Of a DNA stretch of 64,000 nucleotides, positions 4,296 to 37,731 are shown piece after piece. The stretch lies in the sequence record MH252123.1. One strand, given 5' to 3'. Source of the stretch: Klebsiella phage ZCKP1. The translations under genes were made by a program, and so were the position numbers. The notes under the pieces were generated by a model, which saw only the letters and a list, made by a program, of their open reading frames with translations, was not told the DNA's origin and ran no database searches. The first letter of the stretch is position 1. Each line of letters starts with the position of its first letter.

Positions 4296-4307
4296 TTTGT
4301 TCTCCTG

Positions 4308-5530: not shown

Positions 5531-5537
5531 ACTTCAC

Positions 5538-9052: not shown

Positions 9053-9655
9053 TTATGGACATTCATACCATTCTTTTTTACCACCGAAGGCCATCACCAC
9101 ATCACAAATATCCAGACCCGCTTTGCCTACACCATATGCTTTCAGCTTCCATTCCCCATCTTCACGAACCAAGGAAGCCACGTGGCAGATTGTGTTGCCA
9201 GCTACTTCAGGAGCCAGGAAGTCAAAATCCAGAATTTCCACATTGCGCTCGGAGTCGAAGATTTTAAGCATACCTTCAGAAGCATGACCAAAACGTTTCA
9301 GACCTGTATCATCATCAATGGTCAGAACAAAGGCAATCTCTTGTGCATCAGGGGAGATTTTAGCCAGAGTAATATCAATCTGCTCCATGCTGCCAGTTCC
9401 ATCACGAACATCGTCACCAGCGAAGGTAGAACGTTCAGGATCAAACTTGTTAGCATAGCAAACCAGATGACGTGCAGACAGCATTTCAGGATTGCCAGCG
9501 GCATTGTGACGACAAACCAGTGCACTTACATCCAGATCCAGTTTAGAATCAGATTTCCAAGAGAATTCCAGGCGCAGTTCTTTCAGAGCCGGAGCAACTT
9601 TCTTCAGGGAAATTTTTTCGCTAGAGCCTTTTTTCAGGGAAATTTTATCAGTCAT
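9053..9655 (-). CDS. TerD-domain stress protein
   Basis: 200 aa, co-linear with E. coli TerD: ISLKK, LDLDVSALVC, GDDVRDGTG...IDITL, EIAFVLTI, EDGEWKLKAYGVG. Confidence 0.8.
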   Translation of the reverse strand: MTDKISLKKGSSEKISLKKVAPALKELRLEFSWKSDSKLDLDVSALVCRHNAAGNPEMLSARHLVCYANKFDPERSTFAGDDVRDGTGSMEQIDITLAKISPDAQEIAFVLTIDDDTGLKRFGHASEGMLKIFDSERNVEILDFDFLAPEVAGNTICHVASLVREDGEWKLKAYGVGKAGLDICDVVMAFGGKKEWYECP

Positions 9656-9670
9656 CTTTTGTCTCCTCTA

Positions 9671-9940
9671 TTATTTAAGTGTAATACCAGTTACAGTCAA
9701 TTCTACTTCCAAAAGCTTAGATGTGTTTTGGATTGATACTAATTGTGCATGATGGTTTAGTTCTACAGCAGAATAATCATTTTCCCCATCGTCTACTTTT
9801 AAATAAACAATGATTTCACTAAGGTCTAAACCATTTTCGTCAAATGCATTTTCATAGACGAAAGTATCTCCTACATCCAAATCTTTAATGGTAAGGCATC
9901 GTTTATTTACTTTTTGCTCATCAATTTCGAAGTTTAACAC
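9671..9940 (-). CDS. hypothetical small protein, 89 aa (paralog of 10962..11240)
   Basis: shared DLDVGxTFxYxxAxxExGLD motif. Confidence 0.5.
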   Translation of the reverse strand: MLNFEIDEQKVNKRCLTIKDLDVGDTFVYENAFDENGLDLSEIIVYLKVDDGENDYSAVELNHHAQLVSIQNTSKLLEVELTVTGITLK

Positions 9941-10169
9941 TTCTTCCTCCTAATGTTATCTCCGGTTTGTATATACGAAGAATTATAGCATTTTCATTTT
10001 CTTTGTCAACCCATTCTTCATAATCAGGCCATACATGAATCTCTACTCTACTTACAATATCTTCCATTCGCACAGTCCCAATGAAATACTCTTTGAGACT
10101 GCGCATAATGAAAGCTTCTCTCTCACGCCAATAATTTTCTATGACTTGAGAGGCAAGCTCGTCGATCAT
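9921..10169 (-). CDS. hypothetical protein, 82 aa
   Basis: ORF track. Confidence 0.4.
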   Translation of the reverse strand: MIDELASQVIENYWREREAFIMRSLKEYFIGTVRMEDIVSRVEIHVWPDYEEWVDKENENAIILRIYKPEITLGGRSVKLRN

Positions 10170-10960
10170 TTTTTAGCACCTACTTTAACAACCCACTCTC
10201 CGAACTCTTCAGATAAGAGTTTGTCATAAAGTTCTGAATCTGTCAAGTCTAAATCTTTAATGCCAATAAAACCAACATTATCATAAGCATTTGCCAGTTC
10301 TTTCAGGAAGCCAAACTTCTCATTACCAACGCCAACCATGAACCAATAAATAGGTTTATTCTTATTCTCTTCGATAAGATGACGAACAGCACTAGGATCA
10401 CCATTCTCACCATCAGTCTGGAAGAATACAACACCAGGGGTAACGTCAGCACCTGGTTCAGATACAGCTACAACTTTTTCACGCTCTACAGACACTGTTT
10501 CAGTTTTACCAAGCAGACGATTAAAGAAGCCTTTCTTTGGAGCCTCCTCTTGCACCACTTGTTTAGTGGTAATATATTTAGTAACAGTACCAAAATACTC
10601 ATCGTAGATATCCGCCATTACAGGGGCGTAATTTGTTCCACCTCCGATACGAACATTACGCATACATTTACCAACATAGTCATCGTAAACATCTGCTGTT
10701 GCTGGAGTAAGCTCTTGGGAACTCGTATTGAAGGCCCACATATCAATTTGTTGATTATCGTCGAACAGCATACCAAAAGGAAGCAGTTTACCTACAAAAT
10801 CACTCACTACCCCACTAGAATATAGACCATGCATACTACCAGAAATATCTAGAGCACATGCTACACGAAGAACAATCTTACCTTCATTCAGGTTCTTATT
10901 CTTTTTCAGAGAGAAAGCAAGGTTTTCTTGACGTTTTTTCAGGCTGATTTTCTCGGACAT
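10166..10960 (-). CDS. von Willebrand factor A (vWA) domain protein, TerY-like
   Basis: 264 aa; MIDAS motif DISGSM; N-terminus begins KISLKK as in TerD proteins. Confidence 0.7.
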   Translation of the reverse strand: MSEKISLKKRQENLAFSLKKNKNLNEGKIVLRVACALDISGSMHGLYSSGVVSDFVGKLLPFGMLFDDNQQIDMWAFNTSSQELTPATADVYDDYVGKCMRNVRIGGGTNYAPVMADIYDEYFGTVTKYITTKQVVQEEAPKKGFFNRLLGKTETVSVEREKVVAVSEPGADVTPGVVFFQTDGENGDPSAVRHLIEENKNKPIYWFMVGVGNEKFGFLKELANAYDNVGFIGIKDLDLTDSELYDKLLSEEFGEWVVKVGAKK

Positions 10961-10961
10961 A

Positions 10962-11240
10962 TTATTTCTCCTTCTTAAGTGTAATATTGGTAACTTCTAA
11001 ATCTACTTCCACCATATTTGTATCTGGTGGGATGCAATGAGTATAGCCTCGTTGTGCTAGTGATCCATTAATACAGATCGCACTGTTTGTGGAATTTTTA
11101 ATGAACACCAAGTTACGGTAGGTATCCAACCCTGCGTCTTCATAGGCATCATAATACATGAATGTGGCCCCTACGTCAAGATCTTCGAAAGCAATAGGTA
11201 AATCCTGACTTTTTTCTTCTTGAATATTGAATCTAAACAC
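10962..11240 (-). CDS. hypothetical small protein (paralog of 9671..9940)
   Basis: probable GTG start at 11240 (GGAGG 5 nt upstream); the track's longer ORF to 11306 overlaps the upstream gene by 74 nt. Confidence 0.45.
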   Translation of the reverse strand: MFRFNIQEEKSQDLPIAFEDLDVGATFMYYDAYEDAGLDTYRNLVFIKNSTNSAICINGSLAQRGYTHCIPPDTNMVEVDLEVTNITLKKEK

Positions 11241-11796
11241 GCATACCTCCTCTACCAATTTTGAAGCCCAAATCGTAAGCTTCCTTAGTGATCTTTTGTA
11301 ACTCACTTATAGGAAGTGTTACAAGAGGATCATCTTCTTCAATTTCCATCTTGTCATCTTCTGTTTCAATGAGAGTATTATGCACTTTGTGATAAGGGTT
11401 GTCAACACGTTTAAACTTATTCTTTTCTGTGCTGAAAAAACAATCTGGATCTTCTTCACCATCCCCCCAACCTTGGTTAGGATCTCCGTCAGATTGTTCT
11501 GTAGGGATTTCACCTGTAAAGTACTCTTCCAGCACCATAGCAATACCGTCTCTTGGATTTGAGGAATGCATTAAATCACAAACCTTACCCCAATCCGTAG
11601 CCCATTCGAACCGTTCACGAACGCCATTTTCACCCTCTTTTCCAGAGAAAACACAACCATAACTATCATAGTTGCCATACATCTCTTCAATAACAACACC
11701 GTCCTTCAAAAGAAAGAGGTAGCAAGGTGATCCGTCGAAAGAAGTAGAAAGGGCAGCTTTGCCCGATTCTTTGCACAAAAAGCTAAAACAACCCAT
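11233..11796 (-). CDS. hypothetical protein, 187 aa
   Basis: ORF track. Confidence 0.5.
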   Translation of the reverse strand: MGCFSFLCKESGKAALSTSFDGSPCYLFLLKDGVVIEEMYGNYDSYGCVFSGKEGENGVRERFEWATDWGKVCDLMHSSNPRDGIAMVLEEYFTGEIPTEQSDGDPNQGWGDGEEDPDCFFSTEKNKFKRVDNPYHKVHNTLIETEDDKMEIEEDDPLVTLPISELQKITKEAYDLGFKIGRGGMRV

Positions 11797-11999
11797 TACA
11801 AACCCTCCTTCAGATTATCAAGAGCTACAGTGGTTTCACAAGAGTCTCCATAAGTTTTATGATGTTCCAGAAAAGCTTCGGGTCCACCCCAGTCATTATC
11901 TTGTGTATTCCAGCCATCAATAAAAGCATCTTCAATGATTGTGATCAGTTCTTGTCGGGTTAACTGGATAATATTAGGATCGTTATCGTAGTTAAACAT
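11796..11999 (-). CDS. hypothetical protein, 67 aa
   Basis: ORF track; RBS GAGGAGGAAG. Confidence 0.45.
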   Translation of the reverse strand: MFNYDNDPNIIQLTRQELITIIEDAFIDGWNTQDNDWGGPEAFLEHHKTYGDSCETTVALDNLKEGL

Positions 12000-12165
12000 C
12001 TTCTTCCTCCTCTAAAATATGGAACCCGTAATTACAATAATCCTGAAAGGTTTCGTGCGCAAGATCTTCTATATCCTCTTGAGACATATCATCTTCAATT
12101 TCGATATCCACAACCTCATTGCATCCACACCAAGCAGTTTCAATATTCACTCGTAATATTTTCAT
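11992..12165 (-). CDS. unlisted small ORF, 57 aa (MKILRVNIETAWCGCNEV...)
   Basis: ATG overlaps the upstream stop (TAATG); RBS GAGGAGGAG; below the track's 60-aa cut-off. Confidence 0.35.
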   Translation of the reverse strand: MKILRVNIETAWCGCNEVVDIEIEDDMSQEDIEDLAHETFQDYCNYGFHILEEEEDV

Positions 12166-12359
12166 TACTCCTCCTCATTGAAGTCAATATCTGCAAGGAG
12201 TTCGAATTTACGGAAGTTACGACAACCTTCATAAATATAACAATCACGACAAACTGCTAGAACACTTGGGGGATATATACCTCCCATCGGTGCGAATCGT
12301 TTTTCGTCATCATAACGGACACCAATGTCTTCATCAATTATATAGATACGGATTCTCAT
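12165..12359 (-). CDS. hypothetical small Cys-containing protein, 64 aa
   Basis: ORF track. Confidence 0.4.
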   Translation of the reverse strand: MRIRIYIIDEDIGVRYDDEKRFAPMGGIYPPSVLAVCRDCYIYEGCRNFRKFELLADIDFNEEE

Positions 12360-13468
12360 TTACCAAGCCCTCGTTTCACAGCAGCTACCATCCCGTCTTC
12401 CAGAGATTGAACTTCATTAATATAATCAACACGAGCAGCACGGGCTTCCGTATTGATGCGGTTAGTTTCTTCCAACATCTTAACCAAGTTTTCCTGATCG
12501 TGACGCAGAGTTTCAATATCCAACACTTGACGGTTAGCCAGTGCTGCTGCTTCGATCTGATTCTGTGTGGCAAGATCGCTACCCAGTTTAATTGCCAGGT
12601 TAAATTCATCAAGAACGTTATTCTGCGTCTCTGCTGCTTTCATTTGACGTAAGCTCTCGATATACATTGAGAAGTTAGCAGAGTAAGCAGGAATAACATT
12701 ATTTACTATGTTACGCGCAGATCGCATTAAGCTTGCAGAAACTTTTTGCATACCTTGTACACGCGGTCCCATTTGGACACACAGTAGGCGCAATGCTTTT
12801 AAATCTGCAATACGAATCTCCAGAAGATCCAAAGTATCTCGGATCACTTGTCGCTGTTCTACTGCATCTTCTGGAAGAGCAGCCAAAGCTTGTTCTTCTT
12901 TTTCATAGGTTGCTGTTAGAAGCTGCATATCTCGGTTCAAACTTGCAGCATATTGTCCAATAGCTTGATGTAGCTTTTCAAGATATACCAAGGAATCTTC
13001 TTCTTTGCGAATATCCATTTGAAGGTTCTTTACCAACTCTTCAATACGGTTATTAACATTATCAAACTCCCCAAACAGGTCTTCTTTCATACCCATAACT
13101 TTTTTAATGAGTTTAGTAATACCCTTGCTTTGTTTAATAGAGTTTGGATCAAGTTGTTTTGCCTGTTTAATCAAAGCTGTGAGTCGTTCACTCATCTGAT
13201 CGCCTTGATTACTACGTTGATGTTTTAATACCTCGGCATTCAAGGAACGCAAGGTTGTTCCTGCCTCTGCCCCAATCTCTTCGATCTCTTGTCGGGTCAT
13301 AGAAGGCAAAACTGGAACTTCTTGCGGTGCTGCTGGTGCATAAACAGGACTGGCATCTAACACACTTGGAGCGAATACAGATTTACTTGCATCTGTTGTT
13401 GCAGCGAATACACTCATTTCAGACTTCTTCTGACCACCAGTAGCTGCTTTTAAAAATGGACTTGTCAT
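12356..13468 (-). CDS. TelA-like (toxic anion resistance / KlaA family) coiled-coil protein, tentative
   Basis: 370 aa, long helical Q/L/E-rich protein of TelA size within a cluster that also has TerD, TerY-like and TerC genes. Confidence 0.5.
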   Translation of the reverse strand: MTSPFLKAATGGQKKSEMSVFAATTDASKSVFAPSVLDASPVYAPAAPQEVPVLPSMTRQEIEEIGAEAGTTLRSLNAEVLKHQRSNQGDQMSERLTALIKQAKQLDPNSIKQSKGITKLIKKVMGMKEDLFGEFDNVNNRIEELVKNLQMDIRKEEDSLVYLEKLHQAIGQYAASLNRDMQLLTATYEKEEQALAALPEDAVEQRQVIRDTLDLLEIRIADLKALRLLCVQMGPRVQGMQKVSASLMRSARNIVNNVIPAYSANFSMYIESLRQMKAAETQNNVLDEFNLAIKLGSDLATQNQIEAAALANRQVLDIETLRHDQENLVKMLEETNRINTEARAARVDYINEVQSLEDGMVAAVKRGLGK

Positions 13469-14055
13469 TCTTCATTCTCCTCTTCTGCATCTCTTATATA
13501 TGGTGAAACACCGTACTCTTTAGCTACTTTAACCCAATCATCCCATTTATACAACCATAATTTTCCTTCAGTTCCTTCTTTATCTGATTTCAACCACATG
13601 TTAGGTTGCTTACCTGGGTACATGCGATTAGGTTTACGATTATAACCTCTAACACATCTTGTCGCAAACCTATCTACCAGAACAAGAACATATTTATATT
13701 CGTGGTTCAACGGCTCTTTGGAAGTGGCTTTAGGATTAGCCCCTAATTCTGCTGCCAGTTTTTGCCAATGAGCACCATGCCTACTAAACTTACCCATACA
13801 ACCATCAATAGCGTGAGCAATTTCGTGCTTCATTGTATCCACGATCATATCTCTTGTGGAGTTCTTATGCAAGTGCCAATTTACAACAACAATCTTATCT
13901 CGGTAGTTGCACCAACCAAAAGAGTTATTCACTTTGTTTCTAACGCAAGCTTTATATCCTGCTTCACGTAACATGTTGTAGTAAACAGGAAAATCTTCTT
14001 TTATTTCCTGCATCACTTCCCACCACAAAAGTTGCAAGTCTCTCTCGGTATGCAT
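13465..14055 (-). CDS. SprT-like zinc metallopeptidase domain protein
   Basis: 196 aa; HExxH motif (MKHEIAHAI) plus downstream Cys/His. Confidence 0.5.
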   Translation of the reverse strand: MHTERDLQLLWWEVMQEIKEDFPVYYNMLREAGYKACVRNKVNNSFGWCNYRDKIVVVNWHLHKNSTRDMIVDTMKHEIAHAIDGCMGKFSRHGAHWQKLAAELGANPKATSKEPLNHEYKYVLVLVDRFATRCVRGYNRKPNRMYPGKQPNMWLKSDKEGTEGKLWLYKWDDWVKVAKEYGVSPYIRDAEEENEE

Positions 14056-14058
14056 AAC

Positions 14059-14652
14059 TTACACCTTAAAAGTGAAATGCGTGGTCGTGGCTTCAAAATC
14101 AGGGCCAGATAAACGTGCACTGAAATCTGAAATATTTGTAATTAAAAAGCTTTTATGCATACCTAACACAGCCACGCTTTCAATATCTTCTACTAACATT
14201 TCAATCATGTTAGAAACATGGCTGAACGTAGGGTTTTGTTTTTTGATGGTGTAGAAAGAAAGATTCTCACCTGCTGTATAAGATACCTCTTCAAAATCTT
14301 TAATCGTATATTGTGTGCCATCAGTAAAGAAAATGGTAGCTTTATTAGTAGCACGTTTCTTGTTTTTTGGTCCTTTTTTACGTTTACTGCGAGTAGGCAA
14401 ACCGTTTGGGAACACCATAGCTACAAATTCTTCAGGAGAAACCTCCTTACCGAAATCATAACCATAAGAAACAGCATCTATAAACTCGTCGTCTTCATTT
14501 TTAAAATAATGAAAATAAGGCCAATTTGAGAGATTATCAAGCATCTTATGCTCATCCACAGCAGAGAACGTATCCCTCAAAGCGCGTGTAATTTGCAAAG
14601 CATTAGGCAAACTTTTAACACCTGTAATGGAAGTACGAATAGAAATTGTCAT
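14059..14652 (-). CDS. hypothetical protein, 197 aa, with a basic patch (RSKRKKGPKNKKR)
   Basis: ORF track. Confidence 0.5.
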   Translation of the reverse strand: MTISIRTSITGVKSLPNALQITRALRDTFSAVDEHKMLDNLSNWPYFHYFKNEDDEFIDAVSYGYDFGKEVSPEEFVAMVFPNGLPTRSKRKKGPKNKKRATNKATIFFTDGTQYTIKDFEEVSYTAGENLSFYTIKKQNPTFSHVSNMIEMLVEDIESVAVLGMHKSFLITNISDFSARLSGPDFEATTTHFTFKV

Positions 14653-14666
14653 TGTTTTTCTCCTTA

Positions 14667-15104
14667 TTAACGTCGCTTGCTACGAGATGAACTCTTTTTA
14701 CTTAAAGGGCTATTGTAAGATTTACGAGTTGTATAGCTACTATTTGTTTTAAAAGTTTGTCTCGGCTTTTCATAAGTTTTTATCTCTTGTTTAGGCTTAC
14801 CATAAAAATTAGTTTTCGGTTTAGGTGTATTATAATGCTTATTAATAATCGTTCTGTTATCGTTATAATCCCCACTGTTACGATTACTACCACCACTCAT
14901 CATATGCCCTAACAACATACCTGTAGCAAACTCACCAACACCGCTACTACTAGAACCGCCACCATTGTTGATAATAGTTGTATCTCCGTCAGATCCTTGT
15001 TGAGCGTATTGTTGAGGAGGTTGTTGGTATTGTGCAGGATTTGTTTCATCCTCGCAAGCTGTTAAAAAGATACAACCAATTAAAATCAGGGCTAGTTTTT
15101 TCAT
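14667..15104 (-). CDS. Gly/Ser-rich lipoprotein
   Basis: start refined to MKKLALILIGCIFLTAC (lipobox LTAC) with RBS GAGGAAAG. Confidence 0.55.
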   Translation of the reverse strand: MKKLALILIGCIFLTACEDETNPAQYQQPPQQYAQQGSDGDTTIINNGGGSSSSGVGEFATGMLLGHMMSGGSNRNSGDYNDNRTIINKHYNTPKPKTNFYGKPKQEIKTYEKPRQTFKTNSSYTTRKSYNSPLSKKSSSRSKRR

Positions 15105-15287
15105 ATTTGCTTTCCTCATTTTGACTATTAATACATCTGTGTTTGAAATCTCCAGAGAAGCAATAAAGTTGCTCTCCATCTCGGTATAAACTTACTTTAC
15201 TGCCGTTGATTACGCTTGTCAATACAAAAATTACAACAAACAACCCTATTGCAAAACAAATATTTTCAAACACAATCAACAAGTATT

Positions 15288-15638
15288 TCATTTTAAAAAT
15301 ACCTCATCATCAGTTTCATTATCCCAGAAGAACAAATCCCAACCATTCGGATCATTCCATTTGGCTGCTGGAGAAGTCCATATTTGTTCGATATCAATAT
15401 TCAAAACTTCACCGTTTCGTTTTGAAACAGCTTTAGTTAATTCCCAATGAGATACAGGCTCTACTTCCCCTGAACCACTCCCACAACAAGCTACCACGTT
15501 AGGAGGCAACTTAATTGGATCTTTGGTCACGATCATAACGCTTACCCCAGGGTAAACTTTTGAAAGATAATCTAAAACGTAATCCACATCACCAGATAAA
15601 TCCCAAACAAGTTCTTGAATTTCATCAAAATTATTCAT
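15288..15638 (-). CDS. hypothetical protein, 116 aa
   Basis: ORF track. Confidence 0.45.
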   Translation of the reverse strand: MNNFDEIQELVWDLSGDVDYVLDYLSKVYPGVSVMIVTKDPIKLPPNVVACCGSGSGEVEPVSHWELTKAVSKRNGEVLNIDIEQIWTSPAAKWNDPNGWDLFFWDNETDDEVFLK

Positions 15639-15680
15639 AAGTCTCTCCTATAAAATAGCCTCCCGAAGGAGGCTCATCTA

Positions 15681-16655
15681 TTAAACAGCAGCTTCTTCTT
15701 TTTCAGGGAAGATAAAGCTTGCAATAACACCAAGAGCTAATGTGCCTAGAACAATCATCAGACTTACGTTAGGGGAAATATCATGCGGGAGGAATGACCA
15801 CTTGGCATGAAGTGTTTCACCGAACGGGTGATACATAAGTTTAGCACCGACAAATACCAGAACCACAGCAACAGCCTTCTCTAAGTGAACCAGATATTTC
15901 ACAGCCACACTTAACACAAAGAAAAGTGCACGTAAACCAAGAACAGCCATCAGCATTGCAGAATAAACTAGCAGAGGTTCTTGTGTCACACCGATCACAG
16001 CCGGAACTGAATCAAAAGAGAAGACAATATCTGTAAGCTCAATAACAAACACACAAAGAAGAGCAGGAGTTGCATATTTAATACCATTCTTAATGGTGAT
16101 GAACTTTTCACCATCCAGTGCATTGTGCACAGGCAGAACTTTACCTACTAAACGAACAGCCCAATGTTTAGAGTAATCAATATCCTCTTCTTCGTCACCA
16201 CCTTTGATGATAGCCACGGCAGACCAAGCTACAATCAAACCGAACAACACTTGGACCGACCAATGAAGGTTAAACAAAGCGGTCCCTGCTGCAACAAAAA
16301 TACCTCGGAAGACAATGGCTCCTGCAATCCCCCAAAGTAAAATCTTATGTTGGAGATGTGTGCTCTTAATTCCAAAGCTTGCAAAAATTGCCATGAACAC
16401 CATCAGGTTATCTACAGAAAGACTTTTTTCCAACACATAGCCACTTAGGAAAAGCGCGGCAAACTCTTTACCATGTTCTACCCAAATGAATGCGTAATAT
16501 CCTAAAGCTAAAGCAATCCAAAAAACAGACCAAAGCAAAGCAGATTTAATTCCAATTTCTTTATTCTCTTTATGACCAAAGAAATCGATACCAATAGACA
16601 ATGCCAAAATACCAACTAAAACAACTACATCAATAATTGGGAAACCGAGTTGCAT
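15681..16655 (-). CDS. terC: TerC-family integral membrane protein
   Basis: 324 aa, multiple TM helices; signature motifs LEKSLSVDNLMVF and ELTDIVFSFDSVPAVIGV. Confidence 0.8.
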   Translation of the reverse strand: MQLGFPIIDVVVLVGILALSIGIDFFGHKENKEIGIKSALLWSVFWIALALGYYAFIWVEHGKEFAALFLSGYVLEKSLSVDNLMVFMAIFASFGIKSTHLQHKILLWGIAGAIVFRGIFVAAGTALFNLHWSVQVLFGLIVAWSAVAIIKGGDEEEDIDYSKHWAVRLVGKVLPVHNALDGEKFITIKNGIKYATPALLCVFVIELTDIVFSFDSVPAVIGVTQEPLLVYSAMLMAVLGLRALFFVLSVAVKYLVHLEKAVAVVLVFVGAKLMYHPFGETLHAKWSFLPHDISPNVSLMIVLGTLALGVIASFIFPEKEEAAV

Positions 16656-16671
16656 TCTTTTCTCCTCTCTT

Positions 16672-16734
16672 TGCGGGGGAACTATTCCCCCCGCTTCATG
16701 TGATATATCTTACTCTTTTTAAGAACTATGTCAA
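16672..16734 (-). promoter_or_regulatory. minus-strand promoter and 5' hairpin unit upstream of terC: TTGACA-N16-TAAGAT-atatcac-atgaa-GCGGGGGGAAtagTTCCCCCGC
   Basis: reverse complement of 16672..16734 reproduces the array-unit architecture; terC ATG lies 16 nt downstream. Confidence 0.6.
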
Positions 16735-16737
16735 CAC

Positions 16738-16959
16738 TTATTTTGTTGAATGAGAGGAAAAGATTCCTCGTAATACCGCCAAAATAAACGAAACACAAAC
16801 CACGGTCCAGAAGGTTACTGGGACAGTGATATCTGCATGACCCATAACTTCAGCAACATAGTTGTAAGCCAGCAACAGTAACCAAGCTGGAATCAAACTA
16901 AGCATAAAAGCAATAACAAAAAAGCTTACCACTGCAACAATACCTGCAAAAACACCCAT
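16738..16959 (-). CDS. small membrane protein, 73 aa
   Basis: two predicted TM helices. Confidence 0.45.
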   Translation of the reverse strand: MGVFAGIVAVVSFFVIAFMLSLIPAWLLLLAYNYVAEVMGHADITVPVTFWTVVCVSFILAVLRGIFSSHSTK

Positions 16960-16971
16960 ACTAATCTCCTC

Positions 16972-17445
16972 TTAAAGTTTATAAATAGTCACATCGTGAC
17001 CTGTTTTTACTAAAGTTTCTTCAATCATCACTTGGATGATAGCCCAATTACCTCCAGCATGTCCCGCTCCAATCATAGGTAAACCGATCTTACATTTTTG
17101 GTCACGGAGAAGCAAATCATTAGCCATAGCTATTAGTGCATCGTACAAGGCATCATAGTCCAACTGACGACCTTTAGCATTATATCCGTAACGGTATTGC
17201 CCGTAGAGATTATATACCAAAGGGTCTGATTGTTCGTCTGGCACCCCTAAACTAAAAGAACCTAACTTACTTTGATCACCAGCCATTGTGTCTAAATCTG
17301 CCGCATATGCATAAGGGAATGCTCGTTTAATTTGCGGAGCAATTCCTGCCCCCATATTACACATACAATTGCAACAATGAGCAATAACAGTTACTTCACC
17401 TGCTTTAGCGGCATCAATAAGATTACCTGTTTTCATTTTAAGCAT
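16972..17445 (-). CDS. macro-domain protein (ADP-ribose binding / ADP-ribosyl hydrolase-like)
   Basis: start refined to the ATG at 17445 (RBS AAGGAG); VIAHCCNCMCNMGAGIAPQI and GLPMIGAGHAGGNW match the macro-domain Gly-rich loops. Confidence 0.6.
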   Translation of the reverse strand: MLKMKTGNLIDAAKAGEVTVIAHCCNCMCNMGAGIAPQIKRAFPYAYAADLDTMAGDQSKLGSFSLGVPDEQSDPLVYNLYGQYRYGYNAKGRQLDYDALYDALIAMANDLLLRDQKCKIGLPMIGAGHAGGNWAIIQVMIEETLVKTGHDVTIYKL

Positions 17446-17458
17446 TTTTAGCTCCTTA

Positions 17459-18286
17459 TTACAGAATGTGTTGTTTTGTGTAACGATCCAAGAATTCAAA
17501 GTTTTCAGCATACTTTGAAATTCGGTTGTAACCTTCTCCCAAACATCCGAAGAAAAGTTGCTCTACATAGTAGTGTGGCAATTGGCTAAGAATGATTTTG
17601 AAGTCTTCGTGATTTTGGCCCATAAGATACTTAATAGGACGAACAAGACACTGTGCATCACGTTCTTCATTAATCATTTTAACAAACGCTTCTGGTGTAT
17701 TAATATAATTAAAATTCAGTTTAGCTTCGGTATCTGCTTGATTACCTTCATATTTTGCAAAATACAAGAAGTAAACATCATTTTTAACTTGATTTTCATC
17801 AAGGATCTCAATCAGTTTGTCTTCATGAGTTCCAGTGATATTTACATCATCAATAAACACAAGCTTCTTATCACCCCAGAATTCTTTGTTGCAGTAGAAT
17901 GTATCCCCATCAATAAGTTTCTTACGACTAGCTTTATCCAAGAAACCATAATCGTTGATATAGCTAACTTTACGATGAATAATATCTAGTTCTGCTGAAC
18001 GACCTTGATCATATTGTGATTGCAACATATTAAAGTAATTAATAAAATGATCTGTCATCATTGTTGCAGCATTATGCACATGGTTGTAAGGAGAAGGAAT
18101 GATAACAAATTGTTCCCCAATATGTTTCATTGCCACTTGAGCAAAAAACTGAAGTGCCAATTCTTTACCCATACGACGCGCAGCCTGGTTACTACCAAAT
18201 TTCAATTTTGAATAATCTTTAATATCAAAAGTAGCAGTTTCCAGGTCATCAAATTTATTTGCAAAAATTTGAGTTTGATTACGCAT
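17459..18286 (-). CDS. phosphoribosyltransferase (type I PRTase) domain protein
   Basis: 275 aa; PRPP-binding loop VFIDDVNITGTHEDK. Confidence 0.55.
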   Translation of the reverse strand: MRNQTQIFANKFDDLETATFDIKDYSKLKFGSNQAARRMGKELALQFFAQVAMKHIGEQFVIIPSPYNHVHNAATMMTDHFINYFNMLQSQYDQGRSAELDIIHRKVSYINDYGFLDKASRKKLIDGDTFYCNKEFWGDKKLVFIDDVNITGTHEDKLIEILDENQVKNDVYFLYFAKYEGNQADTEAKLNFNYINTPEAFVKMINEERDAQCLVRPIKYLMGQNHEDFKIILSQLPHYYVEQLFFGCLGEGYNRISKYAENFEFLDRYTKQHIL

Positions 18287-18935
18287 TTACAATTTCTCCT
18301 CTTTTAAGTTTCTCTAGTAAGTCGTTAGGGTTCTTAATATGACAGAAGTTAATACCTATGTCAACACATTTACCATCAAATTCTTCGCTGTCCCCAACAT
18401 GTAAAATCTCTTCAGCCTTCAAAGGAATGCTTGAATATGTGGCGGTCCTAACAAAGAATCTAGGATCTGGTTTACACAACAGATGTTCGTCTGAAAAATG
18501 CATAAATTCAAAACAATTCCAACTGTCGAACATGCAAGCACGACGCAAAATATCCCCAGATATAAAATTAGTATTGCTTTTAATACTAAGATCATATTTA
18601 CCAGACAAGTATAGCAAACAAACTGGCAAATCTAAAGCAATATGTGGAGGAAATTTAAGAAACCATTGCTCACACTCAAAACGCATTTGTGCAGATTCTA
18701 CAGGGGTTAAACCTATCTTTCTTCCCAACATATTCCATGCATATGCTACACCTTCTGCACACCCATTTAGTGCAGCATTATCCATAATTTCTTTGGCATC
18801 TTTATATGCTTCTTTTGCCGCACGTTCAGACATTCTACCATATGTAGCAATAGTGTGCGTACGTGCATCTGCATAGTTTTGATTGGCAGAAATAAGAGTA
18901 TTCCATACATCAAAAGAAATATGTTTTATTGTCAT
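18279..18935 (-). CDS. HAD-superfamily phosphatase
   Basis: motif I FDVWNTL near the N-terminus (start refined to MTIKH); motif IV VGDSEEFD. Confidence 0.55.
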   Translation of the reverse strand: MTIKHISFDVWNTLISANQNYADARTHTIATYGRMSERAAKEAYKDAKEIMDNAALNGCAEGVAYAWNMLGRKIGLTPVESAQMRFECEQWFLKFPPHIALDLPVCLLYLSGKYDLSIKSNTNFISGDILRRACMFDSWNCFEFMHFSDEHLLCKPDPRFFVRTATYSSIPLKAEEILHVGDSEEFDGKCVDIGINFCHIKNPNDLLEKLKRGEIVNA

Positions 18936-18936
18936 A

Positions 18937-19542
18937 CTAGGCCCACCACGCATCAAGATTTAAGTTACTGTCTACCACAACTTGTTCTATGTGGTAGCCT
19001 TTTATCTGTATCCCACTGTTCAAGAGCATATCATACGCTTCATTGAAACGCAACTTATCTTCTGCGGAATATAAGCGAGCATTATAAAATCGGTAATCAA
19101 TTTCTTCTGCATTAGAAGAAATACGGAAGAAGTTTGTTTCTACTTCGGGATCACTTGCTGAAGTCTTAATGTGAACTTCTCCATAATTTTCTTTACTTAG
19201 ATCCATGAAAAGAACACAGGCAACATGTTTAAACATTCGTTCCAGTTTGTAACGAACAACATTGAAACCTGCATTCTCAAGTTTTTCTACACACTGCAAC
19301 ATTAAAGTAGTGTCGAGATCGCTTTGATACTTTGTTAACATACGATCACGTTGAGACTTTGTATCCCGATGTAAATCAATTGTTGTGCATTTGGCACCAA
19401 TAATCTTAGCTGCTTTCATCAACTCTTCAGAACTAACGTTAGATAAAGTAAGATGAAAATGGGCTTTCCACACTTTTTTAGCAGGGACACCAAAAGATTT
19501 ATCCCCACTATTCGGCATGTTGACTACTACACTATGTTGCAT
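18937..19542 (-). CDS. hypothetical protein, 201 aa
   Basis: ORF track. Confidence 0.5.
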   Translation of the reverse strand: MQHSVVVNMPNSGDKSFGVPAKKVWKAHFHLTLSNVSSEELMKAAKIIGAKCTTIDLHRDTKSQRDRMLTKYQSDLDTTLMLQCVEKLENAGFNVVRYKLERMFKHVACVLFMDLSKENYGEVHIKTSASDPEVETNFFRISSNAEEIDYRFYNARLYSAEDKLRFNEAYDMLLNSGIQIKGYHIEQVVVDSNLNLDAWWA

Positions 19543-19557
19543 TACTTATCTCCTCAC

Positions 19558-19782
19558 TTAAAATGGAAGTCTTTGAAGTTCATCTCCTCCGATATCAAGT
19601 AATTTAGCAACATCTCGATCAGAAAGCAACTCTTTTCTTTGTAAAATATCCACAAGGGTTGCAAGAATGTCCTTAACGTCCCGATCACTGTTCTTCAAAA
19701 GTTCTCCTGCCGTCCCTACTCTATCTCCTACAGCAAAATATGTAACCATGAAACCTCCTAAGTTAATCTGATTGCCAACCAC
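19558..19782 (-). CDS. hypothetical protein, 74 aa
   Basis: ORF track; overlaps the nrdG stop. Confidence 0.35.
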   Translation of the reverse strand: MVGNQINLGGFMVTYFAVGDRVGTAGELLKNSDRDVKDILATLVDILQRKELLSDRDVAKLLDIGGDELQRLPF

Positions 19783-20233
19783 TTGCCGTTTTGGTCCATA
19801 ATCTTTGATTATCTGACCCTCTGAAAGGTTTTGTAGTTGGATTGTTTATTTCATACTTTCCGTCTACAATAATGTCAACAAGATTTTTAATATACAAAGG
19901 CACTTCCTCAAAAGTATATCCTGTATACACCATTATATCTTTGCTTGACCCATAAACGTCTCTAACCTTTTCTATAAGGCTTTTAACATTGTAAATATTC
20001 TGCGGATCTAATGGTTCTCCTCCTAAAATTGTTAAACCTTTTACAAACGGTCTTGACAAATCTTTTAAAACTTGCTCTACATTTTCGTGAGTAAACGGTT
20101 TCCCGTAAGAATAAGACCAGGCTTTCTGGTTAAAACAGCCACGACAACCGTGGCTACAACCACTAACCCAGAGGGAGCACCTAACTCCCTCACCATTAAT
20201 AAGATCTACAGGTTCATATCCTGCAAAATTCAA
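19763..20233 (-). CDS. nrdG: anaerobic ribonucleotide reductase activating protein (radical SAM)
   Basis: 156 aa; CSHGCRGC = CxxxCxxC; immediately downstream of nrdD. Confidence 0.85.
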   Translation of the reverse strand: MNFAGYEPVDLINGEGVRCSLWVSGCSHGCRGCFNQKAWSYSYGKPFTHENVEQVLKDLSRPFVKGLTILGGEPLDPQNIYNVKSLIEKVRDVYGSSKDIMVYTGYTFEEVPLYIKNLVDIIVDGKYEINNPTTKPFRGSDNQRLWTKTASGWQSD

Positions 20234-22044
20234 AGATGTTTCTCCCTTTGCAAAACTTCCTGCATTTTACCTTTGTTATAAGGCCGTGAATTAGGGGCAG
20301 AAAGATACCCTGATACACGTCTAACTACAGAAATAGTTTCTTCTTCATGGTTGCCACAATCAGGGCACTCAAACCCTTTAGCCGTTGCCTTAAATTCTCC
20401 ATGAAAACCACACTTAAAGCATTGATCCACGGGCTGATTAATACCAAAATAGTGAATATGTTCATAAGCGTAGTCTACTAAAGTCTCCAAAGCTTCTAAG
20501 TTATTCTTTAAGTTTGGTGTTTCGACATAACTTATGTTACCACCATTGCTAATCTGCGCAAAACCTGCTTCATAATCCCATTTTTCAAAAGGATTTGTTA
20601 CCAACCATACAGGTTGATGAAAAGAGTTGGTAAGATAGTCTCTTTCTACCAAACCTGGGTATTTTTCATTTAAAGCTGTTGCAAACTTATAGCACAAGGA
20701 TTCTGCTGGAGTTCCATAGAGACTAAACGCCAGTTTAGATCGTTCTTTAAACACAGCACACACATCTTTCATATGTTGCAGAATGTTTTTACCAAGTTCC
20801 TTTTTATCTTTTTCTTCTGGATAAAGGATTTCCAAAGCTTCAGCAAGACCTACATAACCAATACTAATAGAAGCATAACCATCTTCAAACAAAACACCAA
20901 TTTCATCGTTGGCATTTAAACGCGCTAAAGCCCCTTCCATGAAAAGAATAGGGTTTTCAGATGCTTTGGTATGTCTAATACGGTTTACACGTAGCATGTG
21001 AGCATCATAGGCTATCTCCATATGCTTATTAAGAAGATCGGTGAAAGATTCTCCTTTGCTTCTCGCTTCCGCAGCAATCAGAGGCAAGTTGATAGAAACT
21101 ACTCCAAGGTTGAATCGTCCATCATATTTTTCTCCTTGTTCTGTGGCATAGTACGACAAAAAGGAACGACAGCCCATACTCGTAACGGTACCATCTGCTG
21201 ATCCCGTAACTTCTTTGTTCAAAGGAACAGAAATAAAATCTGGATAAATACGATCAGCACAACATGCCAAAGCTTGTTGCTTAAGGTCATAGTTAGGATC
21301 ACTAGGTTTCATGTTAACACCTTCTTGTAAAAAGAAAATAACTTTAGGGAATACAGGCGTTACATGATCTTTGCCTAGACCATTACTATGCACTTTAAGA
21401 TAGTTAGCTGTGATCATTCTGCCAAAAACAGAGGTATCCAGACCCATACTGATCGTAATAAAAGGAGATTGTCCATTTACACTCATTAAAGTATTAACCT
21501 GATACAAGAGAGTTTGCATAGCATCATATACATCTTGTTCAGTCATTTCTAGGGCTTCTTTCCTTGCATAACAACCGTAGCGACGTTTGGTTATCTCCAT
21601 GTTTTTAAGGAAACTAGCTTCAACATAAGGACTAAGACCTTTATCAATGTGCGCACACGTCTGACCGCCATACTGACTGGAGGCAACAGCTTGGATGATT
21701 TGAGTTAGCACTGTAGTAGCTACTCCAATAGATTTTGGTTTTTCTATCTGTGCAGCACCGATCTTAAAACCATTCTCTAACATATCTTGATAATTAACAA
21801 GACAACAGTTTGTAAGAGGAGAGAGTAGATAATCCAAGTCGTGAATATGTCCAAAACCTTCTGTATGCCATTCTGACAAGTTTTTTGGCAGTATCTGTGT
21901 CATTGCCATATGTTTGCTTAAAATCCCCGCCAAGAGATCCCTGTGCGTGTTAACGAGGTGGGAAGGTTTGTTTGCATTCTCTCTAGTGTATGTTTCTGAA
22001 GTGCGATCTAAAAAAGAAAAAACATCTTGGTACAAATCTTTCAT
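20230..22044 (-). CDS. nrdD: anaerobic ribonucleoside-triphosphate reductase (class III, glycyl radical)
   Basis: 604 aa (T4 NrdD size); C-terminal Cys4 zinc site CFKCGF...CPDCG and glycyl-radical motif RVSGYL. Confidence 0.9.
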   Translation of the reverse strand: MKDLYQDVFSFLDRTSETYTRENANKPSHLVNTHRDLLAGILSKHMAMTQILPKNLSEWHTEGFGHIHDLDYLLSPLTNCCLVNYQDMLENGFKIGAAQIEKPKSIGVATTVLTQIIQAVASSQYGGQTCAHIDKGLSPYVEASFLKNMEITKRRYGCYARKEALEMTEQDVYDAMQTLLYQVNTLMSVNGQSPFITISMGLDTSVFGRMITANYLKVHSNGLGKDHVTPVFPKVIFFLQEGVNMKPSDPNYDLKQQALACCADRIYPDFISVPLNKEVTGSADGTVTSMGCRSFLSYYATEQGEKYDGRFNLGVVSINLPLIAAEARSKGESFTDLLNKHMEIAYDAHMLRVNRIRHTKASENPILFMEGALARLNANDEIGVLFEDGYASISIGYVGLAEALEILYPEEKDKKELGKNILQHMKDVCAVFKERSKLAFSLYGTPAESLCYKFATALNEKYPGLVERDYLTNSFHQPVWLVTNPFEKWDYEAGFAQISNGGNISYVETPNLKNNLEALETLVDYAYEHIHYFGINQPVDQCFKCGFHGEFKATAKGFECPDCGNHEEETISVVRRVSGYLSAPNSRPYNKGKMQEVLQREKHL

Positions 22045-36559: not shown

Positions 36560-36572
36560 CAAAGGAGAAACT

Positions 36573-36761
36573 ATGGCACGTTTAGCAGACCATGAAATCT
36601 TTAAACCTATTCTGAACCACTATGATGAACTTAAAGCAGTGTTGGATTGTTATAGAGAGGATGAAGAACGTTTGGAAATCAATCTTAAGATAGTTCTGAT
36701 GAAAGCTTTTCAAGACGGGCAAGCTAAAGTCTTAGAAGGCATGAAAAATGAGAATAACTGA
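36573..36761 (+). CDS. hypothetical protein, 62 aa
   Basis: start refined to the ATG after AAAGGAGAAACT. Confidence 0.45.
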   Translation: MARLADHEIFKPILNHYDELKAVLDCYREDEERLEINLKIVLMKAFQDGQAKVLEGMKNENN

Positions 36762-37290
36762 CGAATATGTATTCTTCTTTTCACATAAAGATGTGTTTAG
36801 TAATTGGTATATTGCACCCTTTACAGAAACCGAACCAGGTTACAATCAGACATTTAATTGTGTCGAACAATACATGATGTGGCGTAAAGCTTTGCTTTTT
36901 AATGATCACAACACTGCACAGGCTATTCTGACTCATAGTTTGATACGGAAAGATGAGAAGATCCAAGCTTATTACAAACGTATGGGTAGGGCAGTGTCGG
37001 ATTTTGATAACAACGTATGGGAAGAGAACCGTGAGCGTATTGTTATGCGAGGTTTATGCTTGAAATATGTACAGAATCCAGATTTGTATGCAGACTTACA
37101 CCTTTACCAATACAAAACGTTTGTTGAAGCAAGTCCTTACGATAAGGTTTACGGTATTGGAATGGGAATGTATGAACCAGGGGTGCTAAATCCGGTCAAC
37201 TGGAAAGGGCAGAATCTTTTAGGCAAATATCATAACAAACTGATCGAAATACTTTTCCCAGACAAAATACCGCAAAGACGATATTTGTGA
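36748..37290 (+). CDS. NADAR (YbiA-like, DUF1768) domain protein
   Basis: 180 aa; co-linear with E. coli YbiA: FFFS...FSNW, NCVEQYMMWRKALLF, VWEENRERIVMRGLCLKYVQNPDL, VEASPYDKVYGIGMG. Confidence 0.75.
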   Translation: MRITDEYVFFFSHKDVFSNWYIAPFTETEPGYNQTFNCVEQYMMWRKALLFNDHNTAQAILTHSLIRKDEKIQAYYKRMGRAVSDFDNNVWEENRERIVMRGLCLKYVQNPDLYADLHLYQYKTFVEASPYDKVYGIGMGMYEPGVLNPVNWKGQNLLGKYHNKLIEILFPDKIPQRRYL

Positions 37291-37719: not shown

Positions 37720-37731
37720 ATGCAGATGGGA

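What the first reader, a model, noticed from the sequence alone, without database searches (positions are those of the whole stretch)
16972..17445. Macro domain and NADAR domain proteins: candidate ADP-ribosylation reversal (anti-DarT-type) functions
A macro-domain protein sits beside the PRTase (16972-17445). A separate YbiA-like NADAR protein (36748-37290) is the last gene of the first plus-strand early block.

Macro domains (as in the DarG antitoxin) and NADAR domains have both been shown to remove ADP-ribose from DNA bases. DarT toxins ADP-ribosylate DNA as an abortive-infection defence. A phage carrying both hydrolase types is therefore plausibly armed against DNA or protein ADP-ribosylating defences.

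Alternatively they may process ADP-ribose or NAD metabolites generated by the PRTase/HAD module.
Basis: partly seen in the sequence, partly recalled or inferred. Interest (0 to 1): 0.7.

Follow-up and report, generated by a model that had tools for sequence, protein, structure and literature searches.

The report
Phage macro and NADAR ADP-ribose erasers
This E. coli phage (phAPEC8-like) carries two intact enzymes that strip ADP-ribose, and close relatives of both in other phages are already published as counter-weapons against bacterial DarT toxins that ADP-ribosylate phage DNA, so the finding is correct but not new.

Summary
Both genes are real, at the stated coordinates, and look catalytically intact. 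The window is a Phapecoctavirus, 99% identical to phage DE16.

The NADAR (36748-37290, +) scores 123 bits against Pfam NADAR and keeps the mapped active-site residues. It is 59% identical to, and in the same gene order as, the phi92-like AdfN^Bas60. That protein has been shown to neutralise DarT1 (guanine ADP-ribosylation).

The macro protein (16972-17445, -) belongs to the TARG1/DarG/SCO6735 structural class. It has Gln where DarG and TARG1 have the catalytic Lys, as does SCO6735, a proven thymidine-ADPr DNA hydrolase. It shares PHROG 335 with T4 Tk.4 (AdfM), which T4 needs to resist DarTG2.

The same family also contains Adpp. Adpp is an ADPR-1''-phosphate phosphatase that feeds the NARP1 NAD+ rebuilding pathway. 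This phage has no NARP1, and a tree cannot tell which role its macro protein has.

The neighbouring HAD-PRTase_3 pair belongs to a phage-borne Ter system. Other phages carry that pair without a macro gene, so the proposed metabolic link is not supported.

Verdict: new members of known anti-DarT families, assigned by homology only. Interest is low to moderate.

The parts
16972..17445 (-). Macro-domain protein, 157 aa. TARG1/DarG/SCO6735 (ALC1-like) class, Gln-type active site: H23, N26, Q83, G126/G128/G132, W134. Same PHROG as T4 Tk.4 (AdfM) and the Vibrio phage Adpp.
17452..17458 (-). Shine-Dalgarno sequence TAAGGAG, 6 nt upstream of the macro ATG at 17445. It supports the 157-aa start over the longer ORF that begins at 17511.
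   Evidence: RBS and 474-nt CDS annotated in ESCO13 and DE16
36748..37290 (+). NADAR protein, 180 aa. YbiA-family type (Glu at the diagnostic position). Active-site residues E40, K47, K77, R81, W91, R95, E127, D132. Positional orthologue of AdfN^Bas60.
17459..18286 (-). Context only: PRTase_3 (PF15610, ComF-like type I phosphoribosyltransferase of Ter systems). It lies directly upstream of the macro gene. No conserved coupling to the macro gene was found outside Stephanstirmvirinae.
18279..18956 (-). Context only: HAD-fold hydrolase, the conserved partner of PRTase_3.
18937..19542 (-). Context only: 201-aa protein of unknown fold and function (phrog_22504), with invariant HxHxT and ExHxK motifs.
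15681..16655 (-). Context only: TerC membrane protein. With TerD (9053-9655), vWA-TerF-like (10166-10960) and TelA (12356-13468) it forms a phage-borne Ter system around the macro gene.

Best explanation
The phage carries two unlinked, stand-alone ADP-ribose-removing enzymes that act as orphan antitoxins against DarT-type DNA ADP-ribosyltransferases of E. coli.

NADAR (36748-37290). It hydrolyses the N-glycosidic bond between ADP-ribose and guanine N2 on single-stranded phage DNA. This undoes DarT1 (DarTG1) modification so that replication can proceed.

Macro protein (16972-17445). It binds the ADP-ribose moiety in a TARG1-like cleft and removes ADP-ribose from thymidine (DarT2-type modification). 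It does so by the lysine-independent, Gln-positioned, water-mediated route described for SCO6735.

What is shown here: identity of the folds, conservation of the catalytic residues, and orthology or family membership with experimentally tested phage proteins. What is inferred: the substrates and the in vivo role of these two particular proteins.
For: NADAR:
- Pfam NADAR 123 bits.
- The ADPr-contacting and catalytic residues of P. nicotianae NADAR (E43, K50, K75, R79, W89, R93, E125, D130) are all conserved as E40, K47, K77, R81, W91, R95, E127, D132 (residue roles from PMC11543638).
- It is 59% identical over 172 aa to the Justusliebigvirus NADAR. That gene is 96.7-98.6% identical in nucleotides in the BASEL phages JohannJBalmer, PaulScherrer and EmilieFrey.
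- The gene order is the same: AAA ATPase, CapR endonuclease, NADAR. Both fall in phrog_1017.
- AdfN^Bas60 neutralises DarT1 toxicity and restores plating of three DarTG1-sensitive phages, but has no effect against DarTG2.

Macro:
- Confident model (pLDDT 93). Best structural matches are TARG1, BT1257, DarG, Poa1p and SCO6735. Best PDB sequence hit is SCO6735 at 1e-12.
- SCO6735 residues H24, N27, Q85, G126 and G128 correspond to H23, N26, Q83, G126 and G128. These are invariant or nearly so across 43-69 family members.
- SCO6735 cleaves thymidine-ADPr DNA and rescues cells from DarT; Q85A abolishes this.
- T4 Tk.4 has the same Gln, is in the same phrog_335, and is 37% identical. A tk.4 knockout sensitises T4 to DarTG2.
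- The phage has no NARP1 genes that an Adpp-type role would feed.
- Both genes are conserved in about 69 related phage records.
Against: - Neither window protein has been tested directly.
- Evidence for T4 Tk.4 is genetic only. No DNA de-ADP-ribosylation has been shown biochemically for any Gln-type phage macro protein.
- The only biochemically characterised member of the phage family is Adpp, an ADPR-1''P phosphatase. Its near-identical AG74 copy is slightly closer to the window protein (40-42% identity over the full length) than Tk.4 is.
- An unbootstrapped NJ tree places the window protein with neither.
- The SCO6735 DNA-binding lysines K34 and K89 are not conserved (Ala33, Gly87). The protein is acidic (pI 5.9), whereas the proven DNA-acting SCO6735, DarG and TARG1 have pI 8.6-9.9. 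T4 Tk.4 is equally acidic, however.
- In vitro guanine-ADPr hydrolysis by a NADAR does not always give protection in vivo: E. coli YbiA and T4 gp30.3 failed to rescue DarT1 toxicity in one study.
Confidence: 0.55

Rival explanations
1. The macro protein is an Adpp-type phosphatase or another hydrolase of soluble ADP-ribose derivatives. It would convert ADPR-1''-phosphate, the product of RES-domain (aRES) NAD+ phosphorolysis, into ADPR, or degrade ADPR-based immune signals, rather than repair DNA.
For: - Adpp of Vibrio phage Gary is a macro protein in an Adps-Adpp-Namat operon. It converts ADPR-1P to ADPR in vitro.
- Its 95.5%-identical AG74 copy is 40-42% identical to the window protein and falls in the same phrog_335.
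- Of the 80 closest IMG/VR loci, 35 have a NampT-like gene within 5 kb, 17 a Prs-like gene, and 22 a NADAR right next to the macro gene.
- The protein is acidic, like the NARP1-linked members (median pI 5.1).
- Iyer et al. 2022 argued that phage Macro and NADAR proteins mostly target soluble ADPr derivatives.
Against: - No NampT-like or Prs-like gene exists in the window or in the whole genome of the 99%-identical phage DE16. ADPR made by the enzyme could therefore not be rebuilt into NAD+ by the phage.
- In the published system, deleting Adps or Namat abolished the anti-aRES effect.
- T4, which also lacks NARP1 next to tk.4, uses its copy against DarTG2.
Confidence: 0.22
2. The macro protein works together with the adjacent HAD, PRTase_3 and 201-aa proteins (and the Ter system). 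In this reading it makes or trims a ribosylated or nucleoside-like metabolite.
For: - The genes are tightly packed on one strand in the order 201 aa, HAD, PRTase_3, macro, 73-aa membrane protein, TerC.
- The HAD-PRTase_3-macro-...-TerC order is kept in both Phapecoctavirus and Justusliebigvirus.
- Elsewhere the macro family repeatedly sits beside phosphoribosyl-transfer enzymes.
Against: - The HAD-PRTase_3 pair occurs in other phage contigs inside TelA-vWA-TerC-HAD-PRTase_3-TerD clusters, or elsewhere, with no macro gene.
- A 153-kb relative keeps the macro gene (54% identity), the 201-aa protein and TerC, but has no HAD or PRTase_3 within 5 kb.
- Only 5 of 80 related macro loci have PRTase_3.
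- PRTase_3 shows no specific similarity to Adps. Only the generic PRPP loop matches (hhalign probability 0.2%).
Confidence: 0.08
3. The NADAR is a housekeeping YbiA-like N-glycosidase. It would clear riboflavin-pathway intermediates or other ribosylated small molecules rather than act as an anti-DarT factor.
For: - It has the YbiA-family diagnostic Glu (E127) and lacks the N-terminal extension of DarT1-linked NADARs.
- Many database records label homologues as 'GTP cyclohydrolase II' or N-glycosidase.
Against: - The 59%-identical, syntenic AdfN^Bas60 directly neutralises DarT1 and rescues phages.
- There are no riboflavin genes nearby.
- YbiA-family members also hydrolyse guanine-ADPr DNA.
Confidence: 0.06
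4. One or both enzymes reverse protein or RNA ADP-ribosylation. The modification could come from host ART toxins or from a phage-encoded ART, as with T4 Alt/Mod.
For: - TARG1 and SCO6735 also de-modify Glu/Asp-ADP-ribosylated proteins.
- In T4-like phages NADAR genes are co-expressed with ARTs.
Against: - No ART domain was found among the 36 window ORFs of 150 aa or more that were scanned with Pfam.
- No ART is annotated in DE16. Small ORFs were not scanned.
- All NADARs tested so far act on guanine (or cytidine) bases, not proteins.
Confidence: 0.07

Closest known systems
AdfN^Bas60 (NADAR of phi92-like BASEL phages Bas60-62; Johannesman, Carlson and LeRoux, Nat Commun 2025)
   Same: 59% identity, same PHROG (1017), and the same position after the AAA ATPase and CapR endonuclease genes. 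Same Glu-type active site. Stand-alone protein of about 180 aa.
   Different: Different genus (Phapecoctavirus rather than Justusliebigvirus). 41% of residues differ, and two small ORFs lie between the endonuclease and the NADAR. The window protein itself is untested.
AdfN^T4 (gp30.3)
   Same: NADAR fold. The catalytic Glu and Lys (E36, K43) align with E40 and K47.
   Different: Only 18% identity and a different PHROG (652). It has His rather than Glu at the family-diagnostic position, and it needs T4-specific context for full activity.
T4 Tk.4 = AdfM (HIDEN-SEQ preprint, 2025)
   Same: Same PHROG 335 and a similar size (about 155 aa). Same H..N..Q..G-x-G active-site pattern with Gln in place of the catalytic Lys. 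Acidic pI. Stand-alone early/middle gene.
   Different: 37% identity over 124 aa. The genomic context differs (tk-vs region in T4, Ter/PRTase block here). The T4 evidence is genetic only.
PhiKZ gp104 = AdfM (chimallivirus DarG2-like macrodomain; Cell Rep 2026)
   Same: A phage macrodomain that counters DarTG2 by removing thymidine-ADPr from DNA.
   Different: PhiKZ AdfM is DarG-like, with catalytic N23 and K78 (Lys type), and is imported into the phage nucleus. The window protein is the Gln type. The two were not compared directly here.
Adpp (macro-domain ADPR-1''P phosphatase of NARP1-AP, Vibrio phage Gary; Osterman et al. preprint 2026)
   Same: Same PHROG 335. About 40-42% identity through the 95.5%-identical AG74 copy. 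Same Gln-type motifs.
   Different: Adpp is encoded between Adps and Namat and depends on them. The window phage has neither gene.
SCO6735 (Streptomyces coelicolor) and BT1257
   Same: Best PDB sequence hits. Shared Gln85-type catalytic centre (H24, N27, Q85, G126, G128).
   Different: About 30% identity. They are bacterial and basic. The DNA-binding K34 and K89 are not conserved in the phage protein.
DarG macrodomain and human TARG1
   Same: Same ALC1-like macro fold (Foldseek 5e-12 to 2e-9).
   Different: The catalytic Lys (K80 / K84) is replaced by Gln and TARG1 D125 by Ala. The window protein has no DarT-binding C-terminal domain.
E. coli YbiA
   Same: NADAR core with the YbiA-family Glu.
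   Different: YbiA is chromosomal, sits in a LexA-controlled operon, acts on riboflavin intermediates, and did not rescue DarT1 toxicity in vivo. It was not aligned directly here.

Membership tests
Macro domain superfamily (Pfam PF01661) | Profile score at or above the gathering cut-off, and a macro fold | tested here: met
   23.0 bits against a cut-off of 22 (borderline). AF2 pLDDT 93. 209 PDB matches with Foldseek E <= 0.001, and the 50 listed are nearly all macrodomains.
ALC1-like / TARG1-like macro class | Closest structures are TARG1, DarG, SCO6735 and Poa1p rather than MacroD or PARG types | tested here: met
   The top 19 Foldseek hits are TARG1, BT1257, DarG, Poa1p and SCO6735. The phmmer hit order in PDB is the same.
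DarG / TARG1 (Lys-type hydrolases) | Catalytic lysine (DarG K80, TARG1 K84); for TARG1 also Asp125 | tested here: not met
   The aligned column is Gln83, and the TARG1 D125 column is Ala130.
DarG antitoxin | C-terminal DarT-binding domain and an adjacent darT gene | tested here: not met
   Single-domain protein of 157 aa. Its neighbours are PRTase_3 and a 73-aa membrane protein.
SCO6735-type (Gln-type) thymidine-ADPr hydrolases | His24, Asn27, Gln85, Gly126/Gly128 | tested here: met
   H23, N26, Q83, G126 and G128 are invariant or nearly invariant in the phage family. Residue roles are from PMC9411070.
SCO6735-type (Gln-type) thymidine-ADPr hydrolases | DNA-positioning lysines K34 and K89 and a basic surface | tested here: not met
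   Ala33 and Gly87; pI 5.85 against 9.9 for SCO6735. T4 Tk.4 lacks them as well.
Phage Tk.4/AdfM - Adpp family (PHROG 335) | Significant full-length match to the family profile shared with T4 Tk.4 and Vibrio Adpp | tested here: met
   Window 1e-55, Tk.4 7e-66, AG74 5e-51, PaoP5 8e-61, PHB05 7e-65.
AdfM function (anti-DarTG2) | Loss of the gene sensitises the phage to DarTG2; removal of thymidine-ADPr from DNA | not testable with these tools
   Needs phage genetics and biochemistry.
NARP1-AP (Adps-Adpp-Namat) | Macro gene encoded with Adps (Prs-like) and Namat (NampT-like) | tested here: not met
   tblastn at E <= 0.01 finds neither gene in the window or in the DE16 genome (1-100,000 and 102,685-151,363; the 2.7-kb gap lies inside the DNA polymerase gene).
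NADAR superfamily (Pfam PF08719) | Profile score above the cut-off | tested here: met
   123 bits against a cut-off of 35.1, covering 152 of 163 profile positions.
NADAR guanine-ADPr hydrolases | Catalytic Glu and Lys (Pn E43/K50; EcC7 E88/K95; T4 E36/K43) plus the ADPr-contact residues | tested here: met
   E40, K47, K77, R81, W91, R95, E127 and D132 are conserved; Pn W133 is Tyr135.
YbiA family of NADARs (de Souza and Aravind criterion) | Glu at the diagnostic last-strand position (Asp in BC4488/DarG1, His in T4 gp30.3 type) | tested here: met
   E127 in 'FVEASPYD' aligns with Pn E125 (criterion).
DarG1 (BC4488, DarT1-associated NADAR) | Asp at the diagnostic position, a basic N-terminal extension, and an adjacent darT1 gene | tested here: not met
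   Glu, not Asp. The NADAR core starts at residue 11 of 180. No ART gene is adjacent.
AdfN^Bas60 orthologous group | High identity and conserved gene order with the tested protein's gene | tested here: met
   59% identity, E 9e-69. ATPase-endonuclease-NADAR order. BASEL phages carry the PD06-type gene at 96.7-98.6% nucleotide identity.
Ter stress-response system (context) | TerD, TerC, TelA, vWA-TerF plus PRTase_3 and HAD | tested here: met
   All six Pfam families are found on one strand between 9053 and 18956. Macro is not a conserved member of such clusters.

The most novel reading that the evidence does not exclude
In Stephanstirmvirinae the Gln-type macro protein has been recruited into the HAD/PRTase_3/201-aa/TerC block. 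There it would act on a ribosyl-phosphate or ADPR-derived small molecule, in a NARP-independent pathway not yet described that links the phage Ter system to NAD+/ADPR counter-defence. More modestly, this phage macro family may be bifunctional, acting both as an ADPR-1''P phosphatase and as a thymidine-ADPr DNA hydrolase. That would explain why it travels with NARP1 in some phages and alone in others.
Probability: 0.1. Interest if true: 0.6.

Novelty: new member of a known kind. Interest (0 to 1): 0.3.

Why it matters
If the assignments hold, phAPEC8-like therapeutic E. coli phages are pre-armed against both DarTG subtypes. That bears on host-range prediction and phage-cocktail design.

The scientifically open point is narrower. 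The phage macro family (PHROG 335, more than 2,900 phage records) has two published and very different activities: protection from DarT2, and ADPR-1''P phosphatase activity for NAD+ rebuilding. This phage lacks NARP1, so it is a clean background in which to ask which activity a stand-alone member has, or whether one enzyme does both.

Tried and rejected

2. PRTase_3 as a divergent Adps/Prs, which would imply a hidden NARP1. Rejected: only the PRPP-loop motif matches HGPRT/OPRT (E 0.25), and hhalign against AG74 Adps gives 0.2% probability.

3. Phylogeny to decide between AdfM and Adpp. The NJ tree is star-like. The window clade joins neither reference, and NARP1-linked members are polyphyletic. 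No bootstrap was run, and the result is inconclusive.

4. Net charge as a proxy for DNA binding. Uninformative, because T4 Tk.4 is as acidic as the window protein.

5. NARP3 (PnuC/NadR) as an explanation for the PRTase: unrelated.

6. ICP1 AdfB is not a macro protein and is not a relevant comparator.

7. tRNA and Rfam scans of the window found nothing.

8. The afdb50 fold library was unavailable, and Anantharaman et al. 2012 (the Ter paper) is not held. The role of PRTase_3/HAD therefore rests on its summary in Iyer et al. 2021.
Full report
**What the window is.** Bases 15000-20300 are 99.0% identical to Escherichia phage vB_EcoM_DE16 and 98-99% identical to ESCO13, phAPEC8 and relatives. These are Stephanstirmvirinae of the genus Phapecoctavirus, E. 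coli myoviruses of about 150 kb. The window is collinear with DE16.

The macro CDS is 16972..17445 on the minus strand (157 aa). A longer ORF reaches 17511. The ATG at 17445 follows a TAAGGAG Shine-Dalgarno sequence by 6 nt and the PRTase stop codon by 13 nt. Relatives annotate the same 474-nt CDS.
- Pfam Macro is only just passed: 23 bits against a cut-off of 22.
- PHROG 335 gives 1e-55, and PDB phmmer gives 1e-12 to SCO6735.
- An AlphaFold2 model with pLDDT 93 matches TARG1 (5e-12), then BT1257, DarG, Poa1p and SCO6735. The fold is not in doubt.

The NADAR CDS is 36748..37290 on the plus strand (180 aa). It scores 123 bits against Pfam NADAR and 4e-15 against PDB 8bau. It is the last gene of the plus-strand block that begins near 31.06 kb.

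Both genes are conserved at 80% protein identity or more in about 69 phage records.

**The NADAR.** Schuller et al. (PMC11543638) defined the ADPr-binding and catalytic residues of P. nicotianae NADAR as E43, K50, K75, R79, W89, R93, E125, D130 and W133. After correcting the 2-residue offset of the PDB chain, these align with window residues E40, K47, K77, R81, W91, R95, E127, D132 and Y135. Everything is conserved except Trp to Tyr.

The diagnostic last-strand residue is Glu, which defines the YbiA family. DarT1-linked NADARs have Asp there, and T4 gp30.3 has His.

Johannesman et al. showed three things:
- T4 gp30.3 (AdfN) removes ADP-ribose from DarT1-modified DNA.
- A distinct NADAR from BASEL phages Bas60-62 (AdfN^Bas60) neutralises DarT1.
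- AdfN^Bas60 restores plating of RB69, T5 and Bas25 on DarTG1 hosts, but not of T5 on DarTG2.

Bas60-62 are phi92-like phages, now the genus Justusliebigvirus, the sister genus of Phapecoctavirus.
- The window protein is 59% identical (E 9e-69) to the Justusliebigvirus PD06 protein.
- The PD06 gene is 96.7-98.6% identical in nucleotides in the BASEL phages JohannJBalmer, PaulScherrer and EmilieFrey.
- In both genera the gene follows an AAA ATPase and a CapR-domain endonuclease.
- Both proteins fall in phrog_1017, whereas T4 AdfN is in phrog_652.

This is a positional orthologue of an experimentally validated anti-DarTG1 factor.

**The macro protein: active site.** An alignment was made with T4-type Tk.4, the AG74 and PaoP5 homologues, SCO6735, BT1257, T. 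aquaticus DarG and TARG1.
- The column that holds the catalytic Lys of DarG (K80) and TARG1 (K84) is Gln83 in the window protein. It is also Gln in all the phage homologues, SCO6735 (Q85) and BT1257.
- TARG1 D125 is Ala.
- H23, N26, Q83, G126, G128, G132 and W134 are invariant or nearly so across the family.

Hloušek-Kasun et al. (PMC9411070) showed that SCO6735 cleaves thymidine-linked ADP-ribose from DNA faster than DarG or TARG1 and rescues cells from DarT. Q85A or Q85E abolishes that activity. N27 and G128 matter, and K34/K89 position the DNA.

The window protein keeps the catalytic set but not K34 or K89 (Ala33, Gly87). It is acidic, with pI 5.85 against 8.6-9.9 for SCO6735, DarG and TARG1.

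**The macro protein: two characterised relatives with different jobs.**

1. T4 tk.4. A transposon screen and a clean knockout showed that T4 needs it to resist DarTG2. The authors named it AdfM and inferred DNA de-ADP-ribosylation. RB14 Tk.4 is 37% identical to the window protein over 124 residues, lies in the same phrog_335, has the same Gln, and is equally acidic. A different protein, PhiKZ gp104, is also called AdfM. It is a Lys-type, DarG-like macrodomain with demonstrated thymidine-ADPr activity.

2. Adpp. Osterman et al. found a macro protein between Adps and Namat in 15% of NARP1 operons. The Vibrio phage Gary protein dephosphorylates ADPR-1''P, the product of aRES NAD+ phosphorolysis, so that NARP1 can rebuild NAD+. 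All three genes are required. The AG74 copy is 95.5% identical to Gary's, sits in the same Prs-like/macro/NampT operon, and is 40-42% identical to the window protein.

**Neighbourhood survey of the macro family.** Among the 80 closest IMG/VR loci:
- 35 have a NampT-like gene within 5 kb.
- 17 have a Prs-like gene.
- 22 have a NADAR (33-38% identical to the window's) immediately upstream of the macro gene.
- Only 5, all Stephanstirmvirinae-like, have HAD plus PRTase_3.

An NJ tree shows the phage family as one group, separate from SCO6735/BT1257, DarG and TARG1. Its interior is star-like. The window clade joins neither Tk.4 nor the Adpp-like sequence, and the NARP1-linked members are scattered (no bootstrap). 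Sequence alone therefore does not decide between the two activities.

What tips the balance toward the AdfM-type role is that the phage has no NARP1. tblastn with AG74 and PaoP5 NampT and with the Prs-like protein finds nothing in the window or in the DE16 genome. An Adpp without Adps and Namat gave no protection in the published system.

**The PRTase/HAD neighbours.** The minus-strand block carries the following genes:

| Gene | Coordinates |
|---|---|
| TerD | 9053-9655 |
| vWA-TerF-like | 10166-10960 |
| TelA | 12356-13468 |
| SprT-like | 13465-14055 |
| TerC | 15681-16655 |
| 73-aa membrane protein | 16738-16959 |
| macro | 16972-17445 |
| PRTase_3 (PF15610) | 17459-18286 |
| HAD | 18279-18956 |
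| 201-aa unknown | 18937-19542 |
| NrdG / NrdD | 19763-22044 |

This is the Ter system with its PRTase/HAD 'nucleoside-like metabolite' module, as summarised by Iyer et al. 2021, who noted it in some phages.

Several results argue against a functional link to the macro gene:
- In other phage contigs the overlapping HAD-PRTase_3 pair sits in TelA-vWA-TerC-HAD-PRTase_3-TerD clusters, or near an RNA ligase, with no macro gene.
- A 153-kb relative (L010) keeps the macro gene (54% identity), the 201-aa protein and TerC, with no HAD or PRTase_3 within 5 kb.
- PRTase_3 resembles solved structures only at the PRPP loop (E 0.25) and is not Adps-like.

The adjacency is conserved in the two sister genera but not beyond them. 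I read it as juxtaposition, not a pathway.

**Other checks.** No ART domain was found among the 36 window ORFs of 150 aa or more that were scanned with Pfam. None is annotated in DE16. Smaller ORFs were not scanned.

**Verdict.** The NADAR assignment (anti-DarT1, guanine-ADPr) is strong. The macro assignment (anti-DarT2, thymidine-ADPr by a Gln-type mechanism) is the most likely reading, but an ADPR-1''P phosphatase role is a serious rival. The PRTase/HAD link is not supported. These are new members of known kinds. All functional statements about these two proteins are inferences from homology.

Noticed in passing
window 9053-18956 (minus strand): A near-complete Ter (tellurite-resistance-type) system is carried by the phage: TerD, vWA-TerF-like, TelA, SprT-like metallopeptidase, TerC, PRTase_3 and HAD. 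The same set appears in unrelated large phage contigs in the order TelA-vWA-TerC-HAD-PRTase_3-TerD (L089, L093). Its role in a lytic phage is unknown; superinfection exclusion has been proposed in the literature.
   Followed up: partly
[not shown]
   Followed up: partly
IMG/VR loci such as L035, L037, L038, L049, L061 (about 3035-5384 in each): Contiguous NampT-like, NADAR, macro operons occur in many metagenomic phage contigs: 22 of the 80 closest macro loci have a NADAR directly upstream of the macro gene. In the window the two genes are 19 kb apart on opposite strands.
   Followed up: partly
L006 4734-5450 (Justusliebigvirus PHB05): The sister-genus macro protein is annotated at 238 aa, with an N-terminal extension of about 80 aa that also matches the PHROG 335 profile (positions 2-203 of 422). 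Some family members therefore have an extra N-terminal module that the window protein lacks.
   Followed up: no
window 4586-7158 (minus strand): Three consecutive ORFs with weak glycosyltransferase matches (GT1/GT4-like). One has a sub-threshold hit to TET-associated glycosyltransferase (19 bits against a cut-off of 27.5). They lie just downstream of the primase and polymerase genes.
   Followed up: no
window 34740-36200 (plus strand): A 486-aa protein with five CapR-homology repeats (annotated as an endonuclease in relatives) lies upstream of the NADAR. The DE16 copy is 400 aa, so the repeat number varies between close relatives.
   Followed up: no
window 37300-38600: A stretch of about 1.3 kb after the NADAR is gene-poor. 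GC content swings from 25% to 51%. There is no tRNA and no Rfam family hit. One 88-aa minus-strand ORF (38096-38362) is annotated in relatives. Promoter-like sites are somewhat enriched across the scanned interval 36000-39000, which contains this stretch (15 found against 7.9 expected).
   Followed up: partly
window 47856-48314 and 59741-60418 (plus strand): A homologue of T4 gp30.8 (PF06019, 99 bits) and a serine resolvase/recombinase (PF00239) lie among the small early genes.
   Followed up: no
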